64,000 nucleotides of DNA from the NCBI GenBank assembly GCA_964016885.1, contig OZ024742.1, positions 84,630,001 through 84,694,000 of the forward strand, given 5' to 3'. The DNA is from Eledone cirrhosa. Taxonomy: Eukaryota. Position numbers and translations under genes: made by a program. Shown piece by piece: positions 6,160-61,775 of the stretch (its first letter is position 1; every line of letters begins with the position of its first letter). A model generated the notes under the pieces. The model saw only the letters and a list, made by a program, of their open reading frames with translations. It did no database searches and was not told where the DNA came from.

Positions 6160-6529
6160 ACCATAAACTTTTAAACTGAATTGAGGAGAATACTAAGTAA
6201 AATAAAGTACTACCTTCGAACCAGTTTCTTGAAAGGTGGGTGAGAAGGTAGAATATAGCATGAGTAAATGGACCTGCTCTTAGTATGCACCTGTAGACTG
6301 GAGGAGGACAACTGGATTGGGCACCTGTTGGCTTTGGATTTTGTGGAATTTCACATTGTGTGGTCAACAGAAGTTGTCCCTACTGTGGAATTTATTCTAT
6401 TTGAATTTTTACATGTTTTACTTTTTTTTGGTTAAAATCTACAACGTGTTATCATATGCTATCTTGTAGCATTCTCTGCCGTCCATAATATTTTCTTAAT
6501 TTCAGCCCTGCGTGGCTAATAAAGAAACC
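6160..6529 (+). mobile_element. Old, diverged 3' fragment of Tx1-type LINE
   Basis: gaaaggtgggtgagaag...gtaaatggacct...agtatg resembles the ORF2 end of the younger copies. Ends gtggctaataaagaaacc + (ATT)n. Confidence 0.65.
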
Positions 6530-6542
6530 ATTATTATTTAAG

Positions 6543-6656
6543 TTTACCTTGAATCATTACGCGTTCGATAAAATAAAGTACCAGTCACACACTGAGGTCC
6601 ATTTAATCTACTTTCCCATGCCCCCAAATTGCTGGCCTTGTGCCCATATGAGAAAC

Positions 6657-6657
<1 letters not shown>
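6543..6657 (+). mobile_element. 5'-truncated SINE (longer-body variant)
   Basis: tcgataaaataaagtaccagt ... ttgctggccttgtgcc ... agaaacc, followed by (ATT)n 6658-6696. Confidence 0.75.
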
Positions 6658-6696
<39 letters not shown>

Positions 6697-7467
6697 GTTC
6701 TTTGAGTTTCAGTCATTGATGTTATTTAACTGGAAGGTTTGTTTAATTGAATATCAAGCCACTACCTGCAGCCTCAGACATTCAGGACGTATCGGAGGGT
6801 TCTTGCTGTTCCAAGCAAGTATGCCTTGTGAAGTGTTCCAAAACGTGGGGCTGTACTAATCTTCTTTAACCATCCTTGGAAAGTTATTGAGATAGTACCT
6901 GGTGCACCTATGACAATCGGGACGACCTTGATTTCATGACAGTTCCAAATCCTTTTTAACCCCCACTTTAATTCCTGGTATCGGTTAATTTTCTCCCTCT
7001 CCTTTTCTTGCACTCTCGTGTCAAATGGGCAGGCTACATCTACAATCAGGAACGATCTTTTTCCTTGTCCAAAACCACCAGGTCAGGCCTATTGTGATCT
7101 AATTTCTTGTCCGTCTGTATCCTAAAATCCCATAGCACCTTCACCTGATCTTTTTCTATCACCGACTCTGGCTTATGCTCATACCACTTCTCAGGATGTA
7201 AATTGTTTAGTTTGTATAGATGCCAGTGGATGACCCTGGCTATCACATCATGTCTCCAGCCTTTATAGTGAGTCTGGGCTAGGTGTTTACACTCGGATAC
7301 AATGTGAACCACAGTCTCCTCTCTCTCTCCACAGATCCTAACAGTGAGCTAGCCTCCACATTGTCAATATGGTGTTTCACCCACTTCGTTCTGAGGGCTT
7401 GCTCTTGTGCTGCCATTAGCATTCCTTCTGTAGCTTTTTTTTAAGGTCTCCTCTTTTAACCAGTTCC
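6697..7467 (-). mobile_element. R4/Dong-type LINE (family D1), 5'-truncated, endonuclease region + 3' UTR
   Basis: ORF pieces HIVSEC...RHD...NRPDLVVLDK...QEKEREKINRYQELKW (RLE PD-(D/E)XK domain). 3' end abuts (AAT)n and matches 29591 and 38600. Confidence 0.9.
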
Positions 7468-7488
7468 GTATCATTATTATTATTATTA

Positions 7489-9850
7489 TTCAATGCAAAG
7501 CACGAAGGCTGCGTTGTCAGAGCTAGGGTGCGTGCTCTCAGACACGAGGGGACGAAAGCCGTTCAATGGGCCCGAGTGGCGGAGGCGCGTCGGGGCAATA
7601 AAACCACGATCCGGTCGTTGGTGGACCACGACGGGCGTGTGCTACTCGATCCCGGACAAATGTGTGAAGCTTTTCAGCGACACTTCGCTCAACTGTTCGG
7701 GGGCAGTGGCGGGCCGGATCGAGGGATGCACTTTAGTATCTACCTCGACTGACTGCCGCGGCTTTCGGCCACTGAGGCGGAGAGTTGCGAAAAGCCGATA
7801 ACAACCGCTGAAGTACGGGAGGCAATGACTGGCTGCACAAGGGGTAAATCGCCTGGTTTGGATGGTCTGCCCTATGAACTTTACGTACAAATGCCAGACC
7901 TGTTCGGAGGCCTCTTGGCGGACGTCTACTGCAACTGGCAACAGAACGGGAGAATTCCCAGCTCTGTGAGGCGAGGAGCGGTGGCGCTGCTGAGAAAGGA
8001 TCTGAACAAGGGGGATAACATAGATAATTTTAGGCCCATAACTATGCTAAACACAGAGTTCAAGATTTTGGACAAGGTGTTAGCTACGAGGTTGGCGCTT
8101 GTCGTTGGTGGTCTGGTGGGGGAGGCACAGACATGCGCCATTCCCGACAGATCCATCCACGACAACCTCCACCACATGCGATACATCGTAGAGAGGGTAG
8201 CTAGGGAACCCGGCACGGGTGGGTCTTTGATCAATTTAGATCAGTCGAAAGCCTTCGATAGGGTCGACCATCGTTACCTAGCGGCAGTCCTGAGGGCGGC
8301 TGGCTTTGGACCTGTCTTCAGAGGCTGGATCGCTGCCATGCACAGCGACATCTGCTCTGTAGTGAGAGTGAACGGTCACCTTTCGGAACCGTTCAACATC
8401 ATGCGCTCGGTCCGCCAAGGATGTCCCCTCTCGTCCCTATCGTACGTATTGACTCTCGAGCCATTACTGCACAAACTGGAGACGTTGAGGGGGGTCTCGC
8501 GCGAACTAGGATGCGGAAGATCCGTGTCAGCATATGCGGACGATGTCACCGTAGTGGTGTCGAACGCCAAACACATCGAGGCGATCGGCACTACACTAAG
8601 AGAATACGAAGCGGTGACAGGAGCAATGATCAACGAGGAAAAGTCAGTGGGCCTGCAGCTCGGCACCTGGAGAGGCAGGTCCATGCCGTCCAACAGCGTC
8701 GTCGGGCGCTGGACGAACGGACCGGTTAAATTGCTAGGGGTCTGGTTCGGTCCAGACCTCCAGACGGACAAAAACTGAGACGAGGTGACAAGCAGGGTGG
8801 CTTCTCTCACCCAGAAATGGGCGGAGAGGAAGCTATCCTTGAAAGGTCGAGCGGAGGTGGCTAACGCGTACATCGCGTCTGTCATCTGCTACCGCCTGAC
8901 CGTCGTACCTTGTCCTAAGCCTCGCCTGACTGCGCTGGAGCGTTTGCTCTTTCGCTTTTTGTGGAAGGGACGCGCTCCGATGGTCAGGCGGTCCATCTGT
9001 TGTCAACACCCGCTACGTGGAGGGCTGGGCATGCCGTGGCTGATGATGTGCAGGCACGCGCTCAGGCTACGACATCTCAACCTCTTCCTAGACGGTGATC
9101 AGGTGTGGTCGCTGTTTGCTAGACCCGTATTTCCCCAACTCGTTTCCTTGACGGAGCTTCAGTCCTGGGTCAAGCGAAGACCGAGAGGGAGCGCCTGGAG
9201 ACTGGAATGTCTTCAGGCGCTCAGAGCCCTCGACCAATCGGGCAATGTGATCGGTGGAAACTCCACCTCGGCGTTCTATAGACGATTAGTGGAGGGGAAG
9301 AGCGACGACGTACTTGGGGAAACTCTAGGCCTCGACGAAAATCAACTAGCCAATCTCTTCGGAAGAACTTTCGGGCCGGAGCCTATGGACAATTTCCAGA
9401 AATCTCTGGCCTGGCAGTGTTAACGAGGAGCTTTGCCAGTTCGGGATAAACTCTGCAGGCATGGAGGTGCCGTCAGTTGGGCATGTCCGAAAATCAGAGT
9501 AGAGAGGGAAGTGCTCTCTTCCCAGCATTTTGTTGAAAGATGGGTGAGAGAAGCAAGAATGGCCTGAGTGAATGGGCCTACTCTGAGTTTATATCTGTAA
9601 GTTGAAGGTGAAAACTGGGAGAGGGCACTTGCCTTGGTGGTCAGGGTCACAGTGGCCTTTTACTGGGCTTTCTCCACAAATGTCCCTCCGAAGTCTCACC
9701 CCTATTGGGGTATTTTTCATTGTTATTTTTTTGTTACATCCTCTGTTTTTGTTTTTTACACGCAGAAATGCCCATTTGTACCGTCCTGTATCGTCCTACA
9801 CTGTCCTTAATGTCTACTTTATGTAAACCCTTGTGGTTAATAAAGAAATC
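7489..9850 (+). mobile_element. Tx1-type LINE (A-type ORF2/3' UTR), 5'-truncated, with internal deletion near 9490
   Basis: RT ORF 7825-8778 (KSPGLDG, NFRPITML, DQSKAFDRV, SVRQGCPLS, YADD), premature TGA, continuation 8785-9423. Ends AATAAAGAAATC + (ATT)n, with (ATT)n on both sides. Confidence 0.92.
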
Positions 9851-9880
9851 ATTATTATTATTATTATTATTATTGTTATT

Positions 9881-12800
9881 GATCTGTTCGGACGTCCTTT
9901 TCGCTCGCTCCCAGCAAGTCGCTTTATTTGCCTGTTAAAATTATTTGTTGTTAAATATTTCTTGTTGTGTCAGGCATATAAGCCCTTAGACTTTGCCCTG
10001 TGTAGGGGCATTTTGCGATCATAAAAAAATTATAAAAAAAAAAACATGGCTGAGCCACGCCTCCCAGCAATATGTCTGCTGCCGTGTGACAACGGCGTCA
10101 AAGTTGAGAGGAGGGTTAGTGAAATTAAATACAACAGACATCACCACAAACAATGTGAACAACACCGAGAACACTAATTTTGAAAAAACTACCACACCAA
10201 CTACAACAATAACAGCGTCAACCAAATTACAGACAACAGAAAATAATGACAACAAATGTAACAACGATATTAACACCACTAACAAGAAAATAAACAGCGA
10301 CAACACCAACAGCAACAATACAAATTGCACTGAAAACTACAACAAAAGGTGGCACCAAAAACACAACCAACGACAACAGTAATAAAAGCAACAACACCAA
10401 CAACACCGTTTCTAGCAGTAGCAACAGCACCAACACCAAGACCAGTAGCAGCAATAGCGGCAGCAATAATGGTACCGCTGAAAAAGGGGCCACTTCTTTT
10501 GCAGGTGTGGCCGGAAATATAGAGACAGTCCTAGTCACGGAGGAGGAGATGGCTGTCGCAAGACCCATGGTGTCGAGAAACAACAATAGAGTTTCCCTGA
10601 AACCTCCACCCGATTTCTTCAAAGACCAACAGCTGCGCACGGTGACTTACTGTACCGTAAGCAAAATCTCACATCGGGTGGGGAGAGTCACAGAGGCTCA
10701 AATCCAAAAGGCCTTGGGTTGCGTCTGGGCGCGCAATACTCACATCACACGAGGCAAAAGATAAGCCACAGTGGACGTACTTTTCTCCACCCCCCAGGAG
10801 GCGAGTCTCACTCTTTGGAAACTCTAAAGAGTGAGGAGATAGTCTTCGTGCCCTCCTACTGCGGGCAGACAATTGTGAGGGTCAAAGTCACCCAGGTCCC
10901 GCCCGACATGCCCATACCTTGGCTGGCCGCGTCTGTACTGGCTGGAATCGAGGAGAAGACCACCATACTGCAATTACCAAGAATGGGAAAAGAGAACTGG
11001 TCAGGAATAGGCATGCAAACGCTAATACAGACTGACCAGGAGTCCACCGAGGCCATCCCAGATATCATAGACCGCGAAGAAGGGGTCTAACTCCTTATAA
11101 TCGTGGAAGGAAAGCGCACAAAGTGCTATCTCTGTGGGCAGAGGGTCACCTCAGGGTCTTCAGCCTGCAGAACACAGCCAAGAAAAGGGCCCCCCTCAGG
11201 GCAGGCAACAGAGGCAGAAGACCCTTCTATGGTGAGTAGGAGGGCAACGTCCGTGGCACCCATACCAAGGCCACGGACAACTAAAGCAGCGGCAGCAGTG
11301 GGGGCAACACAACAATCGCAGTAGCTACACCGGCGGCAAAATCGCCCGAGCGGGCTCCACTACAACCACCAACAGCAGTGGAGCTCATACCCCTCCCAGA
11401 CGCCATGGAATCTGACATGGAGTATGAGGCGGGAGGGAAGTGCCAATTGGTCTGCCACAAAAATTAAAAGAGGAAAAGCCCCTTAGCTTCACCCTCCAAA
11501 GGCTGACAAAGAGGGGTAAAGGCTGCAAGGAGACTTGCCACAACACCATCACCATCACCATCGACACTACAAGCATCACCACGAACAACAACCACACCAT
11601 CACCAGCATCACGAAAAACATCAACATCGCAAACACAACAAAACACACACAGAATAACAACAAGAAGAAAACAGGAACAAAATCACCCCTCCCCACAAAA
11701 AGTTCAGAGCCATAAACATTGCAAATAAAAAGCTCATACAACATATAAAGCAGCACACAGACATCACATAAAAAACTACTACACCCCACCAACACCAAGA
11801 ACCCTTTCGGCAAACTTAAACATCATTAATATCAAAATAGAACAGTACAAACTTTTAAAACAAAAAATTGCGATGGTCGGTTACCAAGAGGATATACACT
11901 GACATCCTCTTGGAAACACCCATGACCAGCCAAAGGGACGTTTCTACTGTCGCTTCACCACACGATCAAGGTAAGTGATCCTTTCTCACTTACCCCGTTT
12001 CTCATCCAACATGGCCGTACTTAGAGTAGGCAGTATAAATGTACGTGGCTTGGTTCATCTTGGAAGCAGGGTCACCTGCTCAACGACCTCAGGTCACTAA
12101 ATATAGATGTGGTGGGGAGACTAGAATCTCCGAAGCACGAGACTTCGCACCGATCTTCGGCGGCTACGATGTATATTCATCTCCCAGCTGTCCAGGATTG
12201 GGGTGGGGGGTGGCAGTGCTTTTTCGGAGAGGTTTGGATCTCGCCATACGGGCCATCTTCCTGGACCCAGAAGGTAAGTCGGTGGTGCGGGACGTGGTCT
12301 GCAGCGAAGGCAATGTTTTTAGACTAGTAGCCGTCTGCGCTCCAACAGAGGCAGGAATGCCAGATTTCTTCAGACGTCTAGAGAACTTTCTTGGAACGTC
12401 CCGCTCTTTAGTGTTAGTGGGCGACTGGAACGGTATCTTAAATGCAAGCTGGGATTATGTGGGGCAGGAGGGTGTAAAAGCCTCAACAACCTGCTCAGAC
12501 GTTTTGAACTGTGTGACAAGTATAGACTGGATTATCCGAATGTGCCAATGTCGACATCGGCAAGCCGCATAAGGTTATCTAGATCGTATTTAGATAGAGT
12601 ATTCTGTAGGGAAACAGATAAGGCTAGTGTAGGTTGTTGACAATTTAAAGTAGTCGACTACACGGACCAGAAATTTGTGATCTGTGAAGTTGACTTAGAT
12701 AGACTCCATAGGCAAGGGCCCGGCTACTGAAAGCTGAACGCGTCGTTCCCGGCGCGCAGAGCTTACAGAGACCGGATTAGCGAATTAGTTAAGCGTGCGT

Positions 12801-15641
12801 TGACGGGTGCGATCGTCAACAACAGGTGGTGGCTTCTCTGAGAAGGGCTATTAGAGTAGAATCGATAAGGTTTGGCAAAAGAGTAGTGATAGAGGAAAAT
12901 AGAGTAGAGGGAGAGTTAGTTAGAAAGCTAGAAGAAGCGTTTAGGACAGGCATCGCAACCGACGTGCTTGCCGCGAGATTGGCACTCGACCAATTCTTCA
13001 ACGTAAAGCATGGGGGCTGCGTTGTCAGAGCTAGTGCGCGTGCTCTAAGACACGAGGGGAGGAGAGCTGTTCAATGGGCCCGGGTGGTGGAGGCGCGATG
13101 CGGCAAGAAGTCCACAATTCGGTCTGTGCCTGATAAAAACGGGCGTATGTTGCTCGAACCCGAGCAGATGTGTGCGGCTTTTCAACATCACTTTGCTCAA
13201 TTGTTCGGGAGCGGTGGCGGGCCGGTTCGGAGTATGGACTTCGCTGCATACCTCGACGGATTGCGGGGCAGTGCTGCGAAAAGCCAATAACAGCAGGTGA
13301 AATACGGGAAGCGATGTCTGACTGCACGAGGGGTAAATCGCCAGGTTTGGATGGTCTGCAGTACGAGCTTTATGCGTATATGACAGACTTGTTCGGCAAC
13401 CTCTTGGCAGATGTCTACTGCAACTGGCAGCAGAACGGGAATATTCCCAGGTTTGTGAGCCGGGAGCGGTGGCGCTGGTGAGAAAAACCCGAACAAGGGG
13501 GACGTTATAGACAACTTCAGGCCCATATCTCTGCTAAACGCAGAGATATGGGCCTACTAAAGATTTTGGCCAAGGTGTTAGTTAAAGAGATTGGCGCTTG
13601 TCGTTGGTGATCTGCTGGGAGAGGCGCAGACATTTGCCATCCCGGAGAGATCCATCCACGACAACCTCCATCTCATGCGATATATCATAGAGAGGGTGGT
13701 TAAGGAACCGGGCACGGGTGGGGCCCTGATCAAATTGGATCAATCTAAAGCAGTTGATTGGGTCGACCATCAGTACCTGACTGCGGTCCTCGACGCGGCC
13801 GGCTTAGGGCCCGGTTTTAGGGGCTGGATCGCTGCGATGCACAGCAACATCTGCCCGATTGTGAGGGTGAATGGTCACTTGTCGCAGCCTTTCAGCATCA
13901 TGCACTTGGTCCACCAGGGTTGCCCCCTCTCGTCTCTCTTGGCCCTAGAGCCGTTACTGCACAAATTGGAGACGATGAGGGTCGTCCCACGCGAACTGGG
14001 ATGCGGGAGATCCGTGTCAGCTTTCGCCGACGACGTCACCGTGGTGGTGTCGAGCACCAAACACGTCCAGATGCTCGGCACCTCTCCCAAGGAATACGAA
14101 CCGGTGACAGGAGCAAAGATAAACCAGGAAAAGTCAGTGGGCTTGCAACTCTGCACCTGGAGAAGCAATCCAATCGTCCGACAGCGTCGCGAAGGTCTGG
14201 ACGGAAGGGACGATTAAATTGCTCTGAGTCTGGTTCGGTCCTGTCCTCCAGATAGTGAAACACTGGAGCGAGGTGAAGAGCAGAGTGGCCTTTCTCACCC
14301 AGATATGAGCGGAGAGGAAGCTATCCTTGAAAGGTCGAGCGGAGGTGGCTAACGCGTATATCGCGTCCGTCATCTACTACCGCCTGACCGTCGTACCTTG
14401 TCCTAAGCCCCGCTTGACTGCGCTGGGCGTTTACTCTTTCGCTTTTTGTGGAAGGGACGCGCTCCGATGGTCAGGCGGTCCCTCTGCTGTCAACATCCGC
14501 TACGTGGAGGGCTGGGTATGCCGTGGCTGATGATGCGCAGAGACGCGCTCAGGCTACGACATCTCCACCTCTTCCTCGACGGTGATCAGGTATGATCTCC
14601 GTTTGCTAGACACGTCTTTCCCCAGCTCGTCTCCTTGACGCAGCTGCAGTCCCGGGTCAAGATAAGACCGAGAGGGAACGCTTGGAGACTGGAATGCCTT
14701 CAGGCGCTCAGAGCCCTCGACCAATCGGGCAATGTGATCGGTGGAAACTCCACTTGGCGTTCTATAGAGGATTAGTGTGGGGGGGGGGGGGGCGACTACG
14801 TACTTGGAAAAACTCTAGGCGTCGACGAAAATCATCTAGCCAATCTCTTCAGAAGAACTTTCGGGCCGGGGCCTATGGACAACTTCCAGAAATCTCTGGC
14901 CTGGCAGTGCTACCGAGGAGTTTTGCCAGTTCGGGATAAACTCTACAGGCATGAGGTGCCGTCAGCCGGGCATGTCCGAGATGCGCGCAAGGCGACGAAA
15001 CCGTCCTGCACGCACTCGTCCAGTGTCCGAGCATTGCTGACTTGTGGGTTTATGTCGAACACCTGCTGTTGCGTGTAGGACGGATCCAGCTATCAGCTGA
15101 GTCCATCGTGAGGATTGCCCCGCCCTCTTCCTTTAGCCGGGAAGGGCAGGCAGTTTTTATCTGTCTGGTGGCCATGGTGAAAGAGATAGTATGGTGGACA
15201 CGTTTGAAAGGGCTGAAGACGAGCACTTACCTCTTCGGTGATGCCCTGATTAACTTTTTCAAATTTCATCTGAAAAGGAAAATCAGGGTAGAGAGGGAAG
15301 TGCTCTCTTCCCAGCATTTTGTTGAAAGATGGGTGAGAGAAGCAAGTATGGCCCGAATGAATGGGCCTTCTCTGAGTATGTGTCTGTAAATTAAAGGTGG
15401 AAAACTGGGAGAGGGCACTTGCCCTGGTGGTCAGGGTCACTGTGGCTTTTTAATGGGCTTTCTCCACCAATGTCCTTCGTAAGTCTCCCCCCTATTGGGG
15501 AATTTTTTTCATTATTCTATTATTACATCCTCTGTTTCTTTTTTTTTTACACGCAGAAATGCCCATTTGTACCGCCCTGTATTGTCCTGTACTGTCATTA
15601 CTGTCTACTTTATGTAAACCCTTGTGGTTAATAAAGAAATC
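9881..15641 (+). mobile_element. Full-length decayed Tx1-type LINE, chimeric (B-type 5'/ORF1/EN/RT, A-type 3' third)
   Basis: Starts at G directly after (ATT)n. Broken ORF1 from ATG 10046 with KCYLCGQ zinc knuckle. ORF2 ATG 12011, APE motifs (LVGDWNGIL, YLDRV), RT (FADD), C-terminal CPRC...H...C. Many frameshifts. Ends in (ATT)n. Confidence 0.92.
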
Positions 15642-15664
15642 ATTATTATTATTATTATTATTAT

Positions 15665-17110
15665 TACACTAAGAGAATACGAAGCGGTGACAGGAGCAAT
15701 GATCAACCAGGAAAACTCAGTGGGCCTGCAGCTCGGCACCTGGAGAGGCAGGTCCATGCCGTCCAACAGCGTCGTCGGGCGCTGGACAGACGGACCGGTT
15801 AAATTGCTAGGGGTCTGGTTCGGTCCAGACCTCCAGACGGACAAAAACTGGGACGAGGTGACGAGCAGGGTGGCTTCTCTCTTCCAGAAATGGGCCGAGA
15901 GGAAGCTATCCCTGAAAGGTCGAGCGGAGGTGGCTAACGCGTACATCGCGTCCGTCATCTACTACCGCCTGACCGTCGTACCTTGTCCTAAGCCCCGCCT
16001 GACTGCGCTGGAGCGTTTGCTCTTTCGCTTCTTGTGGAAGGGACGCGCTCCGATGGTCAGGCGGTCCATCTGCTGTCAACACCCGCTACGTGGAGGGCTG
16101 GGCATGCCGTGGCTGATGATGCGCCGACACGCGCTCAGGCTACGACATCTCCACCTCTTCTTCGACGGTGATCAGGTGTGGTCGCCGTTTGCTAGACGCG
16201 TTTTTCCTCAGCTCGTCTCCTTGACGGAGCTGCAGTCCTGGGTCAAGCGAAGACCGAGAGGGAGCGCTTGGAGACTGGAATGTCTTCAGGCGCTCACAGC
16301 CCTCGACCAATCGGGCAATGTGATCGGTGGAAACTCCACCTTGGCGTTCTATAGGGGATTAGTGGAGGGGAAGAGCGACGACGTACTTGGACGTGCCGTG
16401 CCAGTTCGGGATAAACTTTACAGGCATGGAGGTGCCGTCAGCCGGGCATGTCCGAGATGCGCACAGGGCGACGAAACCGTCCTGCACGCACTCGTCCAAT
16501 GTCCGAGAATTGCTGACTTGTGGGTTTATGTCGAACACCTGCTGTCACGTGTAGAATGGATCCAGCTATCAGCTGAGTCCATCGTGAGGATTGCCCCGCC
16601 CTCTTCCTTTAGCCGGGAAGTGCAGGCAGTTTTTATCTGTCTGGTGGCCATGGCGAAAGAGATAGTATGGTGGACACGTTTGAAAGGGCTGAAGACGAGC
16701 ACTTACCTCTTCGGTGATGCCCTGATTAACTTTTTCAAATTTCATCTGAAAAGGAAAATCAGGGTAGAGAGGGAAGTGCTCTCTTCCCAGCATTTTGTTG
16801 AAAGATGGGTGAGAGAAGCAAGTATGGCCCGAATGAATGGGCCTTCTCTGAGTATGTGTCTGTAAATTAAAGGTGGAAAACTGTGAGAGAGCACTTGACC
16901 TGGTGGTCAGGGCCACTGTGGTCTTTTAATGGGCTTTCTCCACAAATGTCCCTCGGAAGTCTCCCCCCTATTGGGGAATTTTTCTTTGTTATTTTATTTC
17001 ATCCTCTTGTTTTTTTTACACGCAGAAATGCCCATTTGTACCGTCCTGTATTGTCCTGTACTATCCTTAATGTCTACTTTATGTAAACCCTTGTGGTTAA
17101 TAAAGAAAAC
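15665..17110 (+). mobile_element. Tx1-type LINE (A-type), 5'-truncated, small internal deletion near 16390
   Basis: Open C-terminal ORF2 frame to 16865 including CPRC-x8-H-x4-C. 3' UTR as in the other A copies, with (ATT)n on both sides. Confidence 0.92.
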
Positions 17111-17324
17111 ATTATTATTATTTTTATTATTATTATTATTATTATTGTTATTTTGTTATACTTTGGGAGGGTCATGTTGCCAATAAGAAACACACGCACC
17201 AGTTGCTTTCACTTCAATTTATTATATATTTATAAATTCATAAATTTACAAATCTACAAACTTATAAATTATAAATTTCTGGTTGGTTGGTTGGTTCCAC
17301 AACCAGATAGTTGTTTATATATAT

Positions 17325-50224: not shown

Positions 50225-50236
50225 AATAATAATAAT

Positions 50237-50504: not shown

Positions 50505-50528
50505 TAATAATAATAATAATAATAATAA

Positions 50529-53500
50529 GGGCTAACATGAAGAAAACATTAGAGAGGCACAGAACAGTACAGGAAGATACAAAGTGGGTTTTGGTCGTGT
50601 AAACAGTTTTTAACACAATCGGGCTAGAAATCAAAAAAATTCAAACAACAAAAATTCCCCCAAAAAGGGGGAAACCACCGAGGGTCACTCGTGGCGAAAA
50701 CCACACAAAAAGACCACGGCCACCCTGACAACAAGGGCAAGCGCCTTCTCTCAGTTTTCTCACTCCTCAGTCTACAGGCGCAAACTCAGAGCGGACCCGT
50801 TCTCTCGCACCAGACTCGCCACTTTTACTCACCTTTCAACAAACTTACTAGAAGACAGCACTTGCCTCTCCACCCTGATTTTCCTCTTCAAGTGAAAGTT
50901 TAAAAAGTTAATCAGCAATTGGCCGAAGAGGAAGTGTCCATCTTCAACCCTTTCAATCTTGTCCACCACACAACCCCTTTCGCCATGGCCACCAGGCAGA
51001 TGAAAACTGCCTGCCCTTCCTCCTCTTTAAAGGAGGATGGCGGGGTTATATGCACAATGGACTCAGTCGCTAACCGGATCTGTCCTACACGCCACAGCAG
51101 CTGTTCGACATAGCTCCACAAGTCAGCAATCCTCCTCGAGCATAGAACGAGTGCGTGCATGTCGGTTTCGTCGCCCTGCGCGCATCTAGGACAGGTTCGG
51201 CTGACAGCACCTCCGTACCTGTAGAGCTTATCCCGACCGGCAACGGTCCCCAGTAGCACTGCCAGGAGAGGGATCTCTGGAAGTTGTCCATAGGTCCTGG
51301 TCTGAAAGTTCTCTTGACGCCCAGGGTCTCCTCGAGAGCGTCGCGCTCTTTACCTCCACTAGCCCTCTATAGAACGCCGAAGTGGATGTTCAACCGATAC
51401 TAGTACCCAGCTGGTAGAGGGCGGTGAGCGCTTGGAGACATTCCAGATTCCAAGCGCTATCCCTCGGTCTTTTGCTGATCCATAACTGCAGATCCGTCAA
51501 GGAGACGAGCTGGGGGAAAGCGTGTCTGGCAAACGGTGACGACAACTGTTCACCGTCAACGAAGTAAAAAGATGTCGCAGCCACAGCGTACGTTTGCTCA
51601 TCATCAACCACGGCTTGCCTACTGCTCCACGCAACGGGTGTTGAAAGCAAATGAATCGTCTTACCATGGGAGCACGTCCCTTCCACAAAAAGCGGAAGAG
51701 AAGGCGCTACGTTTTGGTTAGATTTGGGCGGGGGAAAGATACGACGGTCATGCGGTAGCAGATGACGGACGCTATGTACGCATTCGCCACCTCCGCCCAA
51801 CCTTTCAGAGACAGCCTGCTCTCGGCTGAGAGAGGCCACCCTGTCGTCACCTCGCTCCAGCTTTTCTTCATCTGGAGGTCCGGACCGAACCAGACCCAGA
51901 GCAATTTAACCAGTCCTTCCGTCCAGCACCCCACGATGCTGGCGGACGGCATGGACTTGCCTCTCCAGATGCCGGGTTGCAAGCCCACCGACCTTTCCTG
52001 GTTTATCTTTGCTCCTGTGACCGCTTCGTATTCCTTAAGTGCGGTGACGAGCATCTGGACGTGTTTGGTGCTCGACACCACCACGGTGACGTCGTCGCCG
52101 TACGCTGACACGGATCTCCCACATCCCAGTTCGCGTGGGACCCCCATCATCGTTTCCAATTTGTGCAGTAACGGCTCTAGGGCCAGTACGTACAAGATGG
52201 ACGAGAGGGAGAAACCCTGGCGGACCGAGCGCATGATGTTGAAAGGCTGCGACAGGTGACATTCGCCCTCACAATCGAGCAGATGTCGCTGTGCATCGCA
52301 GCGATCCAGCCCCTAAAAACGGGCCCGAATCCGGCCGCCTCCAGGACCGCATCCAGGTACCGATGGTCGACCCTATCATCTGCTTTAGATTGATCCAAGT
52401 TGATCAGAGCTCCACCCGTACCAGGTTCCTTAACCACCCTCTCTATAATATATCGCATGAGATGGAGATTGTAGTGGATGGATCTGTCCGGAATGGCGCA
52501 TGTCTGCGCCTCTCCTCCCAGATCACCGACGACAAGCGTCAATCTCTTTGCTAACACCTTGGCCAAAATCTTAAACTCTGCGTTTAGCAGAGTTATGGGC
52601 CTGAAGTTGTCTATAACGTCCCCCTTTTTCGGATCTTTTCTCAGCAACGCCACCGCTCCCCGGCTCACAAAACTGGATATACTTCTGTTCTGCTGTCAGT
52701 TGCAGTAGACATCTGCCAAGAGGTCACCGAACAAGTCTGGCATATACGCATAAAGCTCGTAGGGCAGACCATCCATACCTGGCGATTTACCCATCGTGCA
52801 GTCAGACGTCGCTTCCTGTATTTCACCTGCTATTATTGGCTTTTCGCAGCATTGCGCTGTGGTCGGAGAGAGCAGCAGGAGTCAGTCGGGGTATGCACCG
52901 AAGTCCATACTCCGATCCTGCCCGCCGACGATCCAGAACAATTGAGCAAATTGCTGTTGAGAAGCCGCACACATCTGCTTGGGTTAGAGCAACATGCGCC
53001 GCTTGATCAGGCGAAGACCGAATTGTGGACTTGTTGCCACGTCGCGCCTCCACCACCCGGGCCCATTGAACGGCTTTCTCCCCCTCGTGTCTTAGAGCAC
53101 GCGCTCTAGCTCTGACAACGCAGCCTTCATGCTTTGCCTTGAAGAAATGGCCGAGTGCCAATCTCGCCGCAAGCACGTCGGATGCGATGCCTGTCCTAAA
53201 CGCCTCTTCTAGATTTCTAACTAACTCTCCCTCTAATCTATTTTGCCCTAACACTACACCTTTGCTAAACCTTACGATTCTACTCTAATAGCCATTTTCA
53301 GGGTAAACCACTATCGCACCCGTCAAGAAACGCTTAACTAATTCGCTAATCCGGTCTCTGTAAGCCGGCCCTTGCCGATGGAATCTATCTAAGTCAACTT
53401 CACAGATCACAAATTTGTAGTCCGTGTATTCGACTACTTTAAATTGTGGACAACCTACACTAGCTTTATTTGTTTCCCTACAGAATACCCTATCTAAATA

Positions 53501-56256
53501 CGATCTGGATGACCCTATGCGGTTTGCCCATGTCCACATTGGCACAATCGGATAATCCAGTCTATACCTGTCACACACTTCAAAACGTCTGAGCAGGTTG
53601 TTGATGATTTTACACCCTCCTGCGTTGTCTCACTTTCTCCACATAATCCCAGCGTGCATCTAAGATACCGTTCCAGTCGTCGACTAACACTAAAGAGCGC
53701 GACGTTCCAAGAAAGGTCTCTAGACATCTGAAGAAATATGGCAGTCCTGCCCCTGTTGGGGCGAAGATGGCTACTAGCCTGAAAGCATTGCCTTCGCTGC
53801 CGGTCACGTCCAGCACCACCGACTTACCTTCTGGGTCTAGGAAGATGGCCGGTATGGCGAGATCCAAGCCCCTCCGAAAAAGCACTGACACCCCTCCCCC
53901 CGATCATGGACGGCTGGGAGATGCGTATACATCGTAGCCGCCGATGATCGGTGCGAAGGCTCGTGCTTCGGAGATTCTAGTCTCACTGATGGCCACCACA
54001 TCTATGTTTAGTGACCTGAGGTCGTTGAGCAGGTGACCCTGCTTCCAAGATGAACCCAAGCCACGTACATTTATACTGCCTATTCTAAGTACGGCCATGT
54101 TGGATGAGAAACGGGCAAGTGAGAAAGGATTGCTTACCTTGATCGTGTGGTGAAGGAACAGTATAATCGTCCCTTTGGCTGGTCATGGGTGTTTCCAAGA
54201 GGATGTCGGTGTATATCCTCTTGGCAACCGCCCCTCCGAAGTCACCAACTGCGTTGGGCAATTTTTGTTTTAAAAGTTTGTAATGTTTTGATTTCAATAA
54301 TGTTTATGTTTGTCGGGAGAGTTCTTGGTGTTGGTGGGGTGTAGTTGTTTTTTTCTGAATGTCTGTGTGCTGCTTTATATGTTGTAAGAGTTCTTTATTT
54401 GCCAAGTTTATGGCTGTGTACTTCTTTGGGAGAGGGGTGATTTTGTTACTATTTTCTTGTTGCTGTTGGGTGTGTGTGTTTTATGTTTGCAATGTTGGTG
54501 TTTTGGTGATGTTGGTGATGGTGTGGTTGTTGTTGGTGGTGATGCTTGTGGTGTTGATGATGATGGTGGTGGTGTTGCTGCAAGTCTGCTTACAGCCTTC
54601 GTTTGCCTTCGCTTTTGGAGGGTGAAGCTAAGGTTTTTTTAGTTTTTTTTGTTTTTTGTGGCAGACCGTTTTCCACTTCCCTCCCGCCACATACTCCATG
54701 TCGGATTCCGTGGCGTCTGGAGGTGGCAGTGGAGGGCGCTCCAGCGATTTTGACGCCGATGTAGCTACTACGACTGTTGGTGTTGTCGCCACTGTTGTCC
54801 GTGGCCTTGGTATGGCTGCCACGGACGTTGTCCTCTTACTCACCATGGAAGGGTCTTCTGACTCTGTTGCCTGCCCTGCTCTTGGTAGCAGCGGATCAGG
54901 CGTCGGAAGGAGGGGGGAGGCTCGTCTTGGCTGTGTTCTGCGGGAAGAAGGCCCTGAGGTAACATTTCTGCCCACAGAGATAGCACTTTGGGCGCCTTCC
55001 TTCCACTCTTATAGGGAGTTGGAGACTTCCCCGAGGTCTATGATGTCTGGGATGGCCTCGAAGCACTCCTGGTCTGTTTGTATTAGCATTTGCATGCCTA
55101 TCCTGACCAGTCCTCTCTTCCCATTCTCGGTATTTGCAGTATGGTGGTCTCCTCCTCGATTTCAGCAAGTACAGACGCGGCCAGTCAAGGTATGGGTACG
55201 TCGGACGGGATCTGGGTCACTTTGACGCTCACAATTTTCTGCCCGCAGTAGGAGGGCACCAAGACTATCTCCTCACTCTTTACAGTTTCCAAAGAGTGAG
55301 ACTTCACCTCTTGGAGGGGGGGGGGGTTCTTCTACTGTGGCATACTTTTTACTTCGGGTGATGTGGGGTTTGCGCGCCCAGACGCACCCTAAGGCCTTTT
55401 GGATTTGAGCCTCCGTGGCTCTCTCCACCCAATGTGACATTTTGCTTACGGTGTGGTAAGCTGCTGGTCTTTGAAGAAATCGGTGGAGATTTGAGGGAAA
55501 CTCTATTATCATTTCTAGTCACCATGGCTCTTGCGACCGCCATCTCCTCCTCCGTGACTACCAATGTCTCTATATTTCGGACCACACCTACGAAAGATGT
55601 GGACCCTTTTTCAGCGTCACCATTGTTGCTCCCGCTATTGCTGCTACTGGTCTTGTTGTTGGTGCAGTTGCTGTTGCTACTGCTAGAAACGTTGTTGTCG
55701 GCCTTGTTGCTGTTATCACTGTGTTGTAGTTGGTTGTGTTTTTGGTGCCACCGTTGTTGTAGTTTTCGGTGCAATTTGTATTGTTGCTGTTGGTGTTGTC
55801 GTTGTTTATTTTCTTGTTAGTGGTGTTAATATCGTTGTTGCATTTGTCTTTTTTTTCTGTTGTCTGTATTTTGGTTGTCGCTGTTGTAGTTGGTGTGGTA
55901 ATTTTTTTTAAATTACTGTTCTCAGTGTTGTTGTCTGTGGTTACGTTGTTTGTGTTGGTGTTTGTTGTATTACTTTCTGTGACCCGCTTTTCAAATTTTA
56001 CGCCGTTTTCACATGACAGCAGACATATTGTTGGCGTGTCTCAGCCATGTTTTTTTTTAAATTTTTAAAAGTAAAATGTTCAAATATTGTTCAAATATTT
56101 GGGCCAAAAGGCCCAAGTACTATACTTTCCCCTTCACAGGGCAAAATCCAAGGGCTTATATCCCTTACACAACAAGAAAAATTTAACAACAAATAATTAT
56201 AACAGGTAAATAAAGCGACTTACTGGGAGCGAACAAAAAGGACGTCCGAACAGACC
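50529..56256 (-). mobile_element. Full-length decayed Tx1-type LINE (B-type throughout)
   Basis: 5' end G-TCTGTTCGGACGTCC as at 9881. ORF1 with RPKCYLCGQ. ORF2 from 54098 (MAVLRIGSINVRG), YGDD. Distinct 3' UTR. (AAT)n on both sides. Confidence 0.92.
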
Positions 56257-56310
<54 letters not shown>

Positions 56311-56311
<1 letters not shown>

Positions 56312-59300
56312 CTTTCTGTATTAACCACAAGGGTTTACATAAAGTAGACATTAAGGACAGTACAGGATAATACAGGAAGGTACAAATGGGCATTTCTGCG
56401 TGTAAAAACAAGAAACAAAGGATGTAATGATAGAATAATAAAAAATTCCCCAATAGGGGGGAGACTTCCGAGGGATATTCGTGGAGAAAGCCCATTAAAA
56501 AGCCGCAGTGACCCTGACCACCAGGGCAAGTGCCCTCTCCCAATTTTCCACCTTTAATTTACAGACACATACTCAGAGTAGGCCCCTTCACTCGGGCCAT
56601 TCTTGCCTCTCTCACTCATCTTTCAACAAAATGCTGGGAAGAGAGGACTTCCCTTTCTACCCTGATTTTCCTTTTCAAATAAAATTTGAAAAAGTTAATC
56701 AGGGCATCACCGAAGAGGTAAGTGCTCGTCTTCAGCCCTTTCAAACGTGTCCACCATACTATCTCTTTCGCCATGGCCACCAGACAGATAAAAATTGCCT
56801 GACCTTCCCTGATAAAGGAAGAGGGCGGGGCAATCCTCACGATGGACTCAGCTGATAGCTGGATCCGTCCTACACGTGACAGCAGGTGTTCGACATAAAC
56901 CCACAAATCAGCAATGCTCGGTCACTGGACGAGTGCGTGCAGGACGGTTTCGTCGCCTGGCGTGCATCTCGGACATGCCCGGCTGCCGGCACCTCCATGC
57001 CTGTAGAGTTTATCCCGAACTGGCAAAGCTCATCGGTAGCACTGCCAGGCCAGGGATTTCTGGAAGTTGTCCATAGGCCCCGGCCCGAAAGTTCTTCCGA
57101 AGAGATTGGCTAGTTGATTTCGTCGACGGCTATAAATTTTGCAAGTACGTAGTCGCTCATACCCTCCACTAATCCTCTATAGAACGCCAAGGTGGTGTTT
57201 TCACCGATCACATTGCCCGATTAGACGAGGGCTATGAGCGCCTGAAGACATTCCAGTCTCCAAGCGCTCCCTCTCGGTCTTCGCTTGACCCAGGACTGCA
57301 GCTCCGTCAAGGAGACCAGCTGACATCGTCCGCATATGCTGACACGGATCTTCCGCATTCTAGTTCACGCGGGACCCCCCCTCAACGTCTCCAGTTTGTG
57401 CAGTAATGGCTCGAGAGTCAAACGTACGATAGGGACGAGAGGGGACATCCTTGGTGGACCGAGCGCATGATGTTGAACGGTTTCTAAAGGTGATCCAGCC
57501 TCTGAAGACGGGCCCAATGCCACCGCCCTCAGGACTGCCCCTAGGTAACGATGGTCGACCATATCGAAAGCTTTCGACTGATCTAAATTGATCAAAGAGC
57601 CACCGTGCCAGGTTCCCTAGCCACCCTCTCTACAATGTATCGCATAAGGTGGAGGTTGTCGTTGATGGATCTGTCGGGAATGGTGCATGTCTGCGCCTCT
57701 CCCACCAGACCACCAACGATAAGCGCTAACCGCTTTGCTAGCTTTTTGGCCCAAATCATGAACTCTGTGTTTAGCAGAGTTATGGGCCTAAAATTATCTA
57801 TGTTATCCCTCTTGTTCGGATCCTTTCTCAGCAGCGCCACAGCTCCTCGGCTCACAGATCTGGGAATTATCACGTTCTGTTGCCAGTTGCAGTAGACGTC
57901 CGCCAAGAGGACTCCGAACAGGTCTGGCATCTGTACGTAAAGTTCATAGGGCTGACGATCCAAACCAAGCGATTTACCCCCTGTGCAGCCAGTCATTGCT
58001 TCCCGTACTACAGCGGCTGCTATCGACATTTCGCAACACTCCGGCTCAGCGGCTCAGAGAGCCGTGGCAATCCGTCGAGGTAGACACTAAAGTCCATCCC
58101 TCGATCCGGCCAGCCGCTGCCCCCGAACAGCTGAGCGAAGTGTCGCTGATAAGCTTCACACATTTGCCCGAGATTGAGTAGCATGCGCCCGTCGTGGTCC
58201 ACCAAAGACCGGATCGTGGATTTGTTGCCACGATTCTCCTCCGCCACTCGGGCCCATTGAACGGCTTTCGTCCCCTCGTGTCTGAAAGCACGCACCCTAG
58301 GTCTGAAAACGCACCCTTCGTGCTTTGCATTGAAGAATTGGTCACGGGCCAATTTCGCCGCCAGTACGTCGGTCGCGATGCCTTTGCCAAGCGCCTCGTC
58401 TAATTTTCTAACTAATTATCCCTCTGCTCTATTTTTCTCTATTGCTAACGCCTTACTAAACCTAATGGACTCTATTCTAATTGTTCTTTTCAGAGCAAAC
58501 CACCACTTGTTGTTGACGATGGCCCCCGTCAACGCCCGCTTAACTAGTTCGCTAATCCGGTCTCTTTAGGCTTTGCGCGCTGGTAAGGACGCGTTTAGCT
58601 TCCAGTAGCCGGGTCCTCGTCTATGAAGCCTATCTAAGTCAAGCACACAGCTCACGAATTTGTGGTCCGTGTAGCTGACTATCTTAGCCTATGCTAGACC
58701 TATATATTTCTCTACAAAATACTCTATCTAGATATGATCTGGATGACCCTATGCGATTTGTCCAAGTCCACATTGGCACATTCGGGAAATCCAATCGGTA
58801 CCTGTCAGACAGTTCAAAACGCCTGAGCAGGTTGGTGAGGCTCTTGCACCCTCCTCCCCTATCCGCTAATCCCACACAGTCCCAGCGTGCATCTAAGATC
58901 CCGTTCCAGTCGTCCACTAACACTAAAGAGTCTAACACCAAGAAAGGTCTCCAGACGCCGGAAGAAATCAAGCCGCCCTGCTCCTGTCGGGACATAGACG
59001 GCCACTAGCCTGAAAGCTTGCCCGTCTCCGCTGGTCACGTCTAGCACCACCAACTTACCTTCTGGGTCTAGAAAGATGGCCCGTATAGCGAGATCTACAC
59101 ATCTCCGAAAAAGCACAGCAACTCCTCCCCCCGATCCCGGACGGCTGGGAGATGCGTACACATCGTATCCGCCGAAGATCGGGGCGAAGGCCCGTGCTTC
59201 AGAGATTCTGGTCTCGCTGATGGCCACTACATCTATGTTTAGTGACCTGAGGTCGTTGAGCAGGTGGCCCTGCTTCCATGACGACCCCAAGCCACGCGCA

Positions 59301-61690
59301 TTTATGCTGCCTATTCTGAGTGAGGTCATGTTTAAAATAGAGTGGAAAAGATGGGAAAGACCACTTACCGTACTTTTCGTAGAGGAGGGATGGTTTTTAC
59401 ATCCCTTTTCACTTGATCGTCTGGTGAAGGGACCGTTGAATCGTCCCTTCGGCTGGTCGTCGGCTCTTCTATGAGTATGTCCGAATATACTCTTCGATTG
59501 ATAGTTCCTCCTATGTCCCTGAAATCACCAACTGCGTTGGGGAATTTCGTTTTAATGTTTGTGTATTGTTTCTGTGCTATTTTTAGCAGTCTTATGTTAG
59601 TTGGCGTTTTGATTGGTGCTGGTATTATGTAGTCGTGTTGTGAAATGTCTGTGTGTTCAATTATGTAAGTCATTAGTTTCTTGTTGTGTGTATTTATTGC
59701 CGTGCATTTGTTTTTCTGGGGGTGGGGTGTGGTTCTGCTCTTTTCTTGTCGTTGTTGCTGGGTATGTGTGTTTTGTTGTTGTGTTTGCGATGTTGGTGCT
59801 TTTGGTGGTGGTGTTGAAGGTGTTGTTGGCGGTGGGGTTGTCGCCGGTGGTGATGGTGGTGCTAGTGTGGGTGGTGATGGCGTTGGTGTTGTTGCTGCTG
59901 TGAGTCTCTTTGCAGTAGACATTATACTTTTCTCATTTCTTTCCTCCCTTTTCAAAGGCGACGATGCGCTGCTTCTGCGTTTGTACCTTCTTACGACCTT
60001 TTGCCATCCCTCTCCCACCTCACACTCCATGTCTGATTCTGTGAGCTCGGGGAGGGGTACCAGCTCCACTCTTTCACTTGTTGTTGTTGGTGATGTTTGC
60101 ACTGGAGTCTCTGTTGCAGCTGCATTTGGTATTGCTGTTGTTGTTGTTAATATTTCCACTGCTGCTGCTGATTTTGATTTCCGTGCCGTGGGTATGGGTG
60201 CCACGGACCTATCGTTCCTGGTTGCTGCTTGTCCTGTTGCTCGTAGCCGTGGAGCCGGTTTCGGAAGGAGGGGGGTTTTCTCCTTTCTCAGGGTCTTCTC
60301 GTTGCAGAAGGCCCTGAGGTGAGTCTTCGATCCACAGCGAAAGCATTTCGGGCGTTTGCCCTCAACACTTATGGGCAGTTGAGTGCCGTTATCTAAGTCT
60401 ATCACATCCGGGATAGCTTCGATGCACTCCTGGTTGGTTTGGATTAACATCTCAATGGAGGTGCCGACCCAATCTTCTCTTACTTTTTTCTGTACTTGCA
60501 GTACAGTTGTTTTATCCTCGATTCCGACGAGGACAGACGCGGCCAGCCATGAAGGGGCCATCCCGGGGGGGGGGGGGGGGACGTGGATCAGTTTAACCCT
60601 CACAATTTTTTGCCCGCAGAAGGAGGGCACCAACACCAGTTCCTCGCTCCTTTGGGTCACTACGGATTGAGCCTTTGCCTCCTGGGGTGTGGCAAAAAGT
60701 ACGTCTACGGTGGCATATTTTTGGCCTCGGGTGATGTGCATTTTCCGCTGCCACACAGACCCCAAGGCTTTTTGTATTTGAGCCTCTGTGGCTCTTTCAA
60801 TCCTACGGGATTTTGTACTTACTGTACGGTACTTGACCGTACAGTGCTGTTGGGCTTCGAAAAGTTTTTCCGCTGTCTTGCAGATTGCTCGGTGTCCAGT
60901 CTTTGTCACCATCTTCTTCGCTTCCTCTAATTCCTCATTTGTTATGAGGATTGTTTCCAGGTTCTTCGCGATACCTGCAAACGAGATTGGTTTTTCTTTG
61001 CTGCTGTTGTTGTTGTCGTCAGAGCCGCTGTTACTTTTGTTGTTGCTGCAGGTACTACGACTATTGCCTCCGCCGCTGTTGCTGTGGTTGTTGTTAGTGT
61101 TGCTGCTGCTAATGCTGTTGTTGTTTATGCTGCTGGTGATGCTGTTGCGGCTGCTACTGTTATTTTCATTGTCACTGTTGCTATTGTTATTACGGCTGCT
61201 ACTGCTATTATTCCTGACGTCAGACGAATGAAATGGGTTTTCGTATTTCCCGCACACCTGTTTCGTCGTTGTCGTCGTCGTCGTGGAGAAATCTTGCACG
61301 CTTTGCACGAGACTTTTCTTTTCTGTCGTCGCTTCCTAAAGAGAAGGGAGGGAGAGAGACACATTTAAAGAAGGGAGGGAGAGAGACAATCTTCTCTCTG
61401 CTGTAGTGATGATTGAGGAAGAAGAAGACGGAATGAGTGGGAGTGACCTATGAAAATTCTTTTTCGTAGCCATGTTGTTTTTTTTTGTTTAAAATAAATA
61501 TTGGGCACACAACCCCAATAAGCAGTTATTTAACCCCGAAGGGCCAAATAACGGGCAGAAAGACCCCTCTCACGAGGAGGAGGGTGTTTTTGTCTACAAG
61601 TTCGTTAAAGTTTTAAACAATTTACAATTGTTATAGCGTTCAAAATTTACAATACCTTACAGAGCCGAGCCTCCGTCAACCATAGCATTC
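56311..61690 (-). mobile_element. Tx1-type LINE (D-type 5'/ORF1, A-type ORF2), both ends intact, about 0.6-kb deletion after YADD
   Basis: ORF2 from 59329 (MTSLRIGSINARG). Deletion junction at 57320/57321. A-type 3' UTR. (AAT)n on both sides. Confidence 0.92.
59365..61308 (-). CDS. Tx1 ORF1 (gag-like nucleic-acid-binding protein), 647-aa open frame
   Basis: N/S-rich N-terminus, conserved central domain, zinc knuckle C-x2-C-x4-H-x4-C (CFRCGSKTHLRAFC), P/T-rich linker. The true start may be the ATG at 61473, cut off by a short duplication. Confidence 0.85.
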   Translation of the reverse strand: MQSVQDFSTTTTTTTKQVCGKYENPFHSSDVRNNSSSSRNNNSNSDNENNSSSRNSITSSINNNSISSSNTNNNHSNSGGGNSRSTCSNNKSNSGSDDNNNSSKEKPISFAGIAKNLETILITNEELEEAKKMVTKTGHRAICKTAEKLFEAQQHCTVKYRTVSTKSRRIERATEAQIQKALGSVWQRKMHITRGQKYATVDVLFATPQEAKAQSVVTQRSEELVLVPSFCGQKIVRVKLIHVPPPPPGMAPSWLAASVLVGIEDKTTVLQVQKKVREDWVGTSIEMLIQTNQECIEAIPDVIDLDNGTQLPISVEGKRPKCFRCGSKTHLRAFCNEKTLRKEKTPLLPKPAPRLRATGQAATRNDRSVAPIPTARKSKSAAAVEILTTTTAIPNAAATETPVQTSPTTTSERVELVPLPELTESDMECEVGEGWQKVVRRYKRRSSASSPLKREERNEKSIMSTAKRLTAATTPTPSPPTLAPPSPPATTPPPTTPSTPPPKAPTSQTQQQNTHTQQQRQEKSRTTPHPQKNKCTAINTHNKKLMTYIIEHTDISQHDYIIPAPIKTPTNIRLLKIAQKQYTNIKTKFPNAVGDFRDIGGTINRRVYSDILIEEPTTSRRDDSTVPSPDDQVKRDVKTIPPLRKVR

Positions 61691-61771
<81 letters not shown>

Positions 61772-61775
61772 AAGA
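61691..61775. repeat. (AAT)n(AAG)n microsatellite, right flank of third cluster
   Basis: Direct reading. Confidence 0.95.

What the first reader, a model, noticed from the sequence alone, without database searches (positions are those of the whole stretch)
6160..61775. Three (ATT)n landing pads filled by two unrelated LINE clades in strictly opposite orientation
Seen: in clusters 6.2-17.2, 27.9-40.9 and 45.3-61.8 kb, essentially every element-element junction is an (ATT)n/(AAT)n tract, and elements are side by side rather than nested. All 7 Tx1 copies are sense to ATT and all 6 flanked Dong copies are sense to AAT. When the microsatellite strand flips in the third cluster, both clades flip. 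Known: Dong elements target (TAA)n. Inference: an APE-type and an RLE-type endonuclease have converged on one microsatellite but nick opposite strands. Each insertion regenerates the target, so single microsatellites grow into 11-16-kb arrays, and read-through from one clade is antisense to the other.
Basis: partly seen in the sequence, partly recalled or inferred. Interest (0 to 1): 0.72.

Follow-up and report, generated by a model that had tools for sequence, protein, structure and literature searches.

The report
Two retrotransposons sharing one microsatellite
In this probably octopod genome stretch, two unrelated jumping-gene families sit in the same three-letter (ATT) repeats facing opposite ways, likely because each cuts a different strand of the repeat, so single repeats have grown into 11-16 kb stacks of old copies.

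Summary
Observation largely confirmed. 7 of 7 Tx1-clade copies end in ATT and 6 of 7 begin at an ATT tract in sense. 7 of 8 Dong/R4-like copies end in AAT and 6 of 8 begin at AAT. None of the 15 lies reversed. Four tracts touch only 5' ends, so they are nobody's tail. The strict test is 3 Tx1 and 3 Dong junctions. Public reads extend the Dong half beyond the window: about 150,000 reads carry AAT behind the 3' end, and at least 6,848 join a 3' end through AAT to a full-length 5' end. The Tx1 half rests on this window alone. New here: a tRNA-type SINE shares the Tx1 3' end (14 of 22 bases), and 5 of its 7 copies follow an ATTA-starting flank. It is likely Tx1's passenger, which suggests a short recognition site. 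Dong at (TAA)n is known, as are Tx1 at other microsatellites and opposite-facing TRAS/SART in telomeres. An (ATT)n Tx1 lineage sharing Dong's target was not found in print. Opposite-strand nicking and antisense read-through are untested.

The parts
6160..6529 (+). T0: old Tx1 3' fragment ending in three ATT units; 5' boundary vague
   Evidence: 67-70% to the other Tx1 3' ends
6540..6657 (+). SINE 3' fragment inserted behind T0's tail
6658..6696 (+). (ATT)13: SINE tail meeting Dong tail
6697..7472 (-). Dong1 3' fragment (zinc knuckle + restriction-like endonuclease)
7473..7490 (+). (ATT)6 between two 5' ends (Dong and Tx1): nobody's tail
7491..9850 (+). T1: 5'-truncated Tx1a with RT; internal deletion at 9490
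   Evidence: RVT_1 E=2e-28
9851..9880 (+). ATT tract
9881..15641 (+). T2: full-length Tx1, chimera (subfamily b up to ~14,300, subfamily a after)
15642..15665 (+). (ATT)8
15666..17110 (+). T3: 5'-truncated Tx1a with zf-RVT
17111..17150 (+). ATT tract, right edge of cluster 1
22320..26800 (-). Dong3: divergent, near-full-length Dong-like copy with no AAT at either end (the exception); carries three SINE copies; outer limits approximate
25159..25461 (+). two SINE copies in tandem at one ATTATT-starting site, with 11-base and ~18-base duplications
27897..27916 (+). ATT tract (Dong2 tail), left edge of cluster 2
27917..29514 (-). Dong2, 5'-truncated
29515..29592 (+). (ATT)22 plus variants
29593..34440 (-). 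Dong1 full length: 925-aa + 222-aa frames; RT, CCHC knuckle, PD..D nuclease
34441..34495 (+). ATT tract between two full-length 5' ends: nobody's tail
34496..38542 (+). T4: Tx1 with its own 5' end and ORF1 type, APE, RT deleted
38543..38599 (+). ATT tract, tail-to-tail Tx1/Dong
38600..40777 (-). Dong1, 5'-truncated
40778..40865 (+). ATT tract; also the tail of Dong4
40866..41870 (-).
45255..45378 (+). (GAA)-like, (GAT), (AAT)18 compound microsatellite in front of a Dong 5' end: nobody's tail
45379..50224 (+). Dong1 full length
50225..50236 (+). (AAT)4
50237..50505 (+). Dong2 3' fragment, 97.5% to the copy at 27.9 kb
50506..50526 (+). (AAT)7
50527..56256 (-). T6: full-length Tx1b lacking its last ~18 bases
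56257..56310 (+). (AAT)18
56311..61690 (-). T5: full-length Tx1 with open 656-aa ORF1 (CCHC), APE, Tx1a 3' end
61691..61803 (+). (AAT)17 then (AAG)n in front of a Tx1 5' end: nobody's tail
2664..2852 (+). SINE with a 17-base target duplication that begins ATTA; 3' end like Tx1's

Best explanation
A Tx1-clade LINE and a Dong/R4-like LINE sit in the same (ATT)n tracts in opposite directions, likely because the Tx1 APE endonuclease first nicks the AAT strand and the Dong restriction-like endonuclease first nicks the ATT strand, each nick then likely priming reverse transcription of an RNA whose tail matches it. Shown: the domains, the junctions, the orientation and the mixed ages of neighbours. 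Inferred: each insertion leaves a tract on both sides (duplicated target plus tail), so the number of targets rises and one site grows stepwise into an 11-16 kb array. The first tract is either a host microsatellite (cluster 3) or an older element's tail (clusters 1 and 2). Inferred: the SINE uses the Tx1 machinery, and its duplications put the cut just before ATTA, so recognition is probably short and long tracts act as many sites in a row.
For: All 12 scoreable 5' junctions lie on tracts that make up 1.6% of the clusters, in the family's direction. Four tracts touch only 5' ends (7473, 34,441, 45,325, 61,691). Both outer edges of cluster 3 carry CTT-type repeats on the same strand, as a split compound microsatellite would. 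Neighbours differ in age: Dong2 copies are 97.5% alike, Dong1 88-93%, Tx1a 89-94%, T0 67-70%. Run X6: 117,863 + 32,271 reads have AAT loose ends behind the Dong1 3' end; 1,714 + 3,810 + 1,324 reads join that end to a Dong1 5' end, a junction the window lacks, against 145,447 molecules starting in the 3' end. Dong at (TAA)n in molluscs is reported (PMC7998251, passages). Endonuclease swaps change TRAS/SART specificity (PMC7265360, passages). The SINE and Tx1 3' ends match at 14 of 22 bases without gaps, against 4-7 of 22 for Dong ends; window background 3e-4.
Against: No Tx1 flank outside the window was seen: no genome is held, and one search shows no interpretable Tx1 flank among the 24 of 8,441 loose-end rows and 15 of 1,453 joint rows displayed. 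Only 3 Tx1 5' junctions are free of a same-clade tail. Dong3 has no AAT at either end and T0 has no clean 5' tract. SINE duplications lie in ordinary AT-rich DNA, not long tracts, and 2 of 7 SINE copies show none. 0 of 80 distant Tx1-like loci (45% identity or less) hold an ATT tract of 15 bases. Duplications inside pure tracts cannot be measured, so the cut position there is unknown. The read library is restriction-based, so shares are biased and the number of loci is unknown; PCR template switching is not formally excluded. No nicking data.
Confidence: 0.58

Rival explanations
1. Both families do end up in the tracts, but direction is set by RNA-tail pairing. A loosely AT-preferring nuclease nicks either strand, and only the nick complementary to the RNA tail primes.
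For: Every flanked copy carries the matching tail. SINE duplications start at ATTA in non-repetitive DNA. Annealing of target-like RNA improves accuracy in SART1 (PMC7265360, passages).
Against: The same paper names the endonuclease as the main determinant for TRAS/SART. Pairing alone does not explain how the two tails became fixed in the first place.
Confidence: 0.26
2. Only Dong targets the tracts. Tx1 inserts broadly, and its tandem runs come from template jumping between RNAs and from survival in a transposon-rich region.
For: 3 of 6 Tx1 5' junctions abut another Tx1's tail. Tx1 copies are mosaic. No genome-wide Tx1 data.
Against: T1, T4 and T5 begin at ATT tracts that are no Tx1's tail. 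No Tx1 copy is nested in another element although tracts are 1.6% of the clusters.
Confidence: 0.13
3. The clusters are copies of one another or an assembly artefact.
For: Clusters 1 and 3 both have a Tx1a 3' end followed by a b-type 5' end; clusters 2 and 3 both have Dong2 behind Dong1.
Against: Truncation points, deletions and order differ, and copies differ by 2.5-12%. Reads show further Dong-Dong junctions at other loci. No contig piece shown spans the stretch, so the assembly itself was not checked.
Confidence: 0.03

Closest known systems
Dong (R4 clade), (TAA)n-specific
   Same: Single RT-CCHC-PD..D frame, no N-terminal zinc finger seen, sense to (TAA)n. Reported for insects, molluscs and cnidarians (PMC7998251, PMC3812793, passages).
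   Different: Nothing essential. Here several families stack in one another's tails. The 5' HDV-like ribozyme shown for silkworm Dong (PMC3774820, passages) was not found in two aged copies.
Microsatellite-specific Tx1: Kibi (TC)n, Koshi (TTC)n, crocodilian (TTCC)n/(TTTC)n, anole telomeric Tx1
   Same: ORF1 + APE-RT-zf-RVT, and insertion into a short tandem repeat (PMC4494074, passages and section 15; PMC10088271, passages).
   Different: The target here is (ATT)n. The lineage groups with an Argonauta protein (99/100) and unnamed ~50% relatives (94/100); its link to Kibi/Koshi is unresolved in my tree.
TRAS and SART in silkworm (TTAGG)n telomeres
   Same: Two families in one tandem repeat facing opposite ways and forming arrays (PMC7265360, PMC10088271, passages).
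   Different: Both of those are R1-clade APE elements at telomeres. Here an APE and a restriction-like element share an interstitial microsatellite.
R1 and R2 in 28S rDNA (recalled, no call)
   Same: An APE and a restriction-like element converge on one repeated locus.
   Different: Separate sites, same direction, and a gene target that insertions do not multiply.
SINEU with Tx1-Mar in crocodilians
   Same: A SINE and a Tx1 share a target, and repeat insertions make tandems around a duplication (PMC4494074, passages).
   Different: Here the SINE is tRNA-type, shares the 3' end and targets ATT.

Membership tests
Tx1 clade | Two frames: ORF1 with CCHC knuckle, ORF2 with APE + RT + zf-RVT | tested here: met
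   Exo_endo_phos, RVT_1 and zf-RVT; APE motifs GDWN, SYLDR, DHK; CX2CX4HX4C in the 656-aa ORF1
Tx1 clade | RT groups with Tx1 rather than L1 | tested here: inconclusive
   Nearest named hits include 'transposon TX1 149 kDa protein' at 41% and U2- and 5S-flanked loci at 31-40%. The tree had no L1 reference and an open base.
Kibi/Koshi microsatellite lineage of Tx1 | Clade with Kibi/Koshi; pyrimidine-rich repeat target | tested here: inconclusive
   No labelled Kibi/Koshi sequence was available, the branch is unresolved and the target differs
Target-specific Tx1 (over 20% of flanks one sequence type; criterion in PMC4494074) | Flank share genome-wide | not testable with these tools
   6 of 7 in the window; no genome held
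R4/Dong clade | Single frame: RT, C-terminal CCHC, PD..D restriction-like nuclease, no APE | tested here: met
   the profile's best solved matches are R2 proteins, E=3e-60 versus L1 9e-29
R4/Dong clade | Inserts sense in (TAA)n | tested here: met
   6 of 8 5' ends and 7 of 8 3' ends; reads
R4/Dong clade | N-terminal divergent Myb/SANT domain, no zinc fingers | tested here: inconclusive
   A conserved W/Y block is present in 54 aligned proteins, with no Pfam Myb hit at E up to 1; no structure model was obtained
R4/Dong clade | 5' HDV-like ribozyme | tested here: inconclusive
   No hit by my descriptor or Rfam; only two aged 5' ends to test
R4/Dong clade | RT phylogeny with named Dong/R4 | not testable with these tools
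   No named Dong or R4 among the 120 of 161 homologs listed
Octopus CORE-SINE OR2 | tRNA head and CORE domain matching the published consensus | not tested
   A- and B-box-like motifs are visible (box consensus recalled). OR2 is named as a CORE SINE in PMC4758252 (passages). No reference sequence was available.

The most novel reading that the evidence does not exclude
Octopods carry an (ATT)n-specific Tx1 lineage, with its own SINE passenger, that has converged on Dong's target from the opposite strand. The three elements make targets for one another, and this self-feeding loop builds the genome's ATT tracts and a large share of its transposon hotspots, with mixed junctions supplying antisense RNA that links the silencing of both clades.
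Probability: 0.3. Interest if true: 0.68.

Novelty: new variant of a known kind. Interest (0 to 1): 0.5.

Why it matters
It would add a new target, (ATT)n, to the Tx1 clade and give a natural pair of unrelated endonucleases that read one three-base repeat from opposite strands, a simple system for separating enzyme choice from RNA-tail pairing. It offers a mechanism for the transposon hotspots mapped but not explained in Octopus vulgaris, where Dong-R4 and L1-Tx1 are both recently active (PMC13282606, first third of the text and passages), and a candidate driver for an octopod SINE. It also warns that (AAT)n markers in these genomes may often be element junctions.

Tried and rejected
Whole-genome flank counts: no genome held. 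Other Tx1 loci: none in viral contigs or prokaryote genomes. The metagenome scan kept the best 80 of 524 confirmed loci, all distant (45% or less); none had an ATT tract, and of the 20 scanned with Rfam 7 carried U2 or 5S RNA matches. The loose end at 53,146 in run X6 (24,567 reads, AT-rich, agreement 0.39) looked like Tx1 flanks but sits on an AATT restriction site of the other subfamily; I read it as ligation chimeras and do not use it. Joints 502xx to 56,256 are tails mapping to the other AAT tract, not deletions. Ribozyme searches found nothing. No structure model was obtained. Cluster look-ups added no names beyond Argonauta. Earlier findings of this scan: none. 'Tracts are only tails' is rejected by four 5'-only tracts. 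'Clusters are duplicates' is rejected by differing breakpoints. Empty sites were not tested: the reads were laid on 45,360-56,275 only, without unique flanks.

Full report
What is there. A self-comparison and domain scans resolve three clusters of non-LTR elements joined by ATT tracts. One family has ORF1 plus APE, RT and zf-RVT. Its closest named relative is an Argonauta hians protein at 71%, and a 'transposon TX1 149 kDa protein' matches at 41%, so the host is probably an octopod and the family Tx1-like. The other has one frame with RT, a CCHC knuckle and a PD..D nuclease, and its profile is nearest to solved R2 proteins. With its (TAA)n flanks it fits Dong/R4, though no named Dong was available for a tree.

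Junction counts. All 7 Tx1 copies end in ATT, and 6 of 7 begin at an ATT tract in sense; the old fragment T0 has no clean 5' tract. Of 8 Dong-like copies, 7 end in AAT and 6 begin at AAT. Dong4 is rearranged, and Dong3 has no AAT at either end. None is reversed, and both flip in cluster 3. The 15 tracts are 641 of 40,802 cluster bases, and no LINE in the clusters is nested in another.

Tail or target. 3' tracts prove nothing, since they may be tails. Six of the twelve 5' junctions abut a same-clade tail and could in principle come from template jumping. The other six (T1, T4, T5, and Dong at 7472, 34,440 and 45,379) sit on four tracts that are nobody's tail; direction by chance is 0.5^6 = 0.016, post hoc. 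In cluster 3 both outer edges run into CTT-type repeats on the same strand, as if a compound microsatellite had been split. Clusters 1 and 2 may have been seeded by the tails of T0 and the SINE and of Dong4. Ages differ: Dong2 copies are 97.5% alike and both sit in a Dong1 tail, Dong1 copies are 88-93% alike, Tx1a 89-94%, T0 67-70%. This points to stepwise growth, not one event.

Beyond the window. No genome is held. Four of the eight listed public runs were laid on 45,360-56,275. Run X6 is a RAD library of organism C, which is the same or a close species (another run with that label holds 46% of the sampled words; identity not established). Read starts and ends fall on GCATGC at 50,100 and AATT at 45,458. 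145,447 molecules start in the Dong1 3' end. The two displayed loose-end rows there read AAT (117,863 reads, agreement 0.87; 32,271 reads, 0.96). 10,100 molecules end in the Dong1 5' end, and three joint rows (1,714, 3,810 and 1,324 reads) link a 3' end to a 5' end, a junction the window does not have. Five more rows (8,058 reads, possibly overlapping those) place an AAT run before the 5' end. So Dong stacks head-to-tail through AAT at other loci. Limits: only 15 of 1,453 joint rows and 24 of 8,441 loose-end rows are shown, the library samples by restriction site, the number of loci is unknown, human-like reads are filtered, and PCR switching is not excluded. No displayed row informs on Tx1 flanks; the one candidate at 53,146 sits on a restriction site and is read as chimeras.

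The SINE. Seven SINE 3' ends lie in the window. Their last 22 bases match Tx1 3' ends at 14 of 22 without gaps in 4 of 6 copies compared (13 for T0, 10-11 for T4, which has a deletion), against 4-7 for Dong ends; 3 in 10,000 window positions reach 14. Five of the seven have an ATTA-starting left flank. Duplications are 17 bases at 2664, and 11 and about 18 bases for two copies in tandem at 25.2-25.5 kb; one has only 6 bases, one lies in T0's tail, and two show none. I infer that the SINE is mobilised by this Tx1 and that the cut lies just before ATTA, in ordinary AT-rich DNA as well. That supports the direction rule independently but argues for short recognition. The match is short, and another LINE partner is possible.

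Mechanism. In target-primed reverse transcription the first nick is on the strand complementary to the element's sense (established knowledge, recalled). Tx1 therefore primes from the AAT strand and Dong from the ATT strand. Whether the nucleases choose the strand (0.58) or tail pairing does (0.26) cannot be told from sequence. Antisense read-through is possible only at mixed junctions. The copies are 2.5-12% diverged and all LINE copies here show stops, frameshifts or truncation, and no RNA was examined.

What is known. Dong at (TAA)n, including molluscs (PMC7998251, PMC3812793; passages). Tx1 at (TC)n, (TTC)n, (TTCC)n and telomeres (PMC4494074, passages and section 15; PMC10088271, passages). 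TRAS and SART facing opposite ways in telomeric repeats (PMC7265360, passages). The two octopus repeat surveys list both clades; in the text and passages I read they give no targets (PMC13282606; PMC8967140). Nine literature searches (listings, with passages of eleven papers) showed no (ATT)n Tx1 and no shared Tx1/Dong target. Repbase, subscription papers and the supplements and figure of PMC4494074, which list Tx1 targets, could not be seen and may hold it.

Verdict. The pattern is real and non-random. The Dong half is known biology, confirmed here at scale. The Tx1 half, with its likely SINE, is a probable new target specificity supported by one window. New variant of a known kind; interest 0.5.

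Noticed in passing
window 17150-22074: Young Penelope-like element (RT + GIY-YIG, 730-aa frame at 19,462-21,654) as an inverted pair with arms 99.4% identical over 2.3 kb, directly at the right edge of the ATT tract of cluster 1.
   Followed up: no
window 9881-15641, 34496-38542, 56311-61690: Tx1 copies are mosaic: three unrelated 5' ends and ORF1 types (38-57% amino-acid identity) on ORF2 and 3' parts about 90% alike; T2 switches subfamily near 14,300.
   Followed up: partly
window 50247-50492: The Dong2 piece differs at only 4 of 246 bases from a 1,489-base contig in each of organisms A and B, whose runs hold just 11-14% of the stretch's words; a young shared or transferred family is possible.
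   Followed up: no
window 50820-54095: In runs X1 and X2 the summed depth over Tx1 is about 10 to over 1,000 times that over Dong, the reverse of run X3: the balance of the two families differs between organisms.
   Followed up: no
window 22320-26800: Dong3 has TA-rich rather than AAT ends, and near 26,750 a 13-base match to the Dong1 5' end; possibly a lineage with another target.
   Followed up: partly
window 33630-34292 and 40742-40777: A 345-base tandem duplication in the Dong1 5' region, and a threefold short repeat at a truncated Dong 5' junction that looks like polymerase slippage.
   Followed up: no
window 1-883: Tandem 310-base repeat, 2.8 copies, 99% alike.
   Followed up: no
L006, L010, L011, L013, L016; L018, L032: Distant Tx1-like elements from metagenomes with U2 snRNA or 5S rRNA matches; L011, L013 and L016 also have a U2-like match 0.5-0.9 kb from the contig start.
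   Followed up: no
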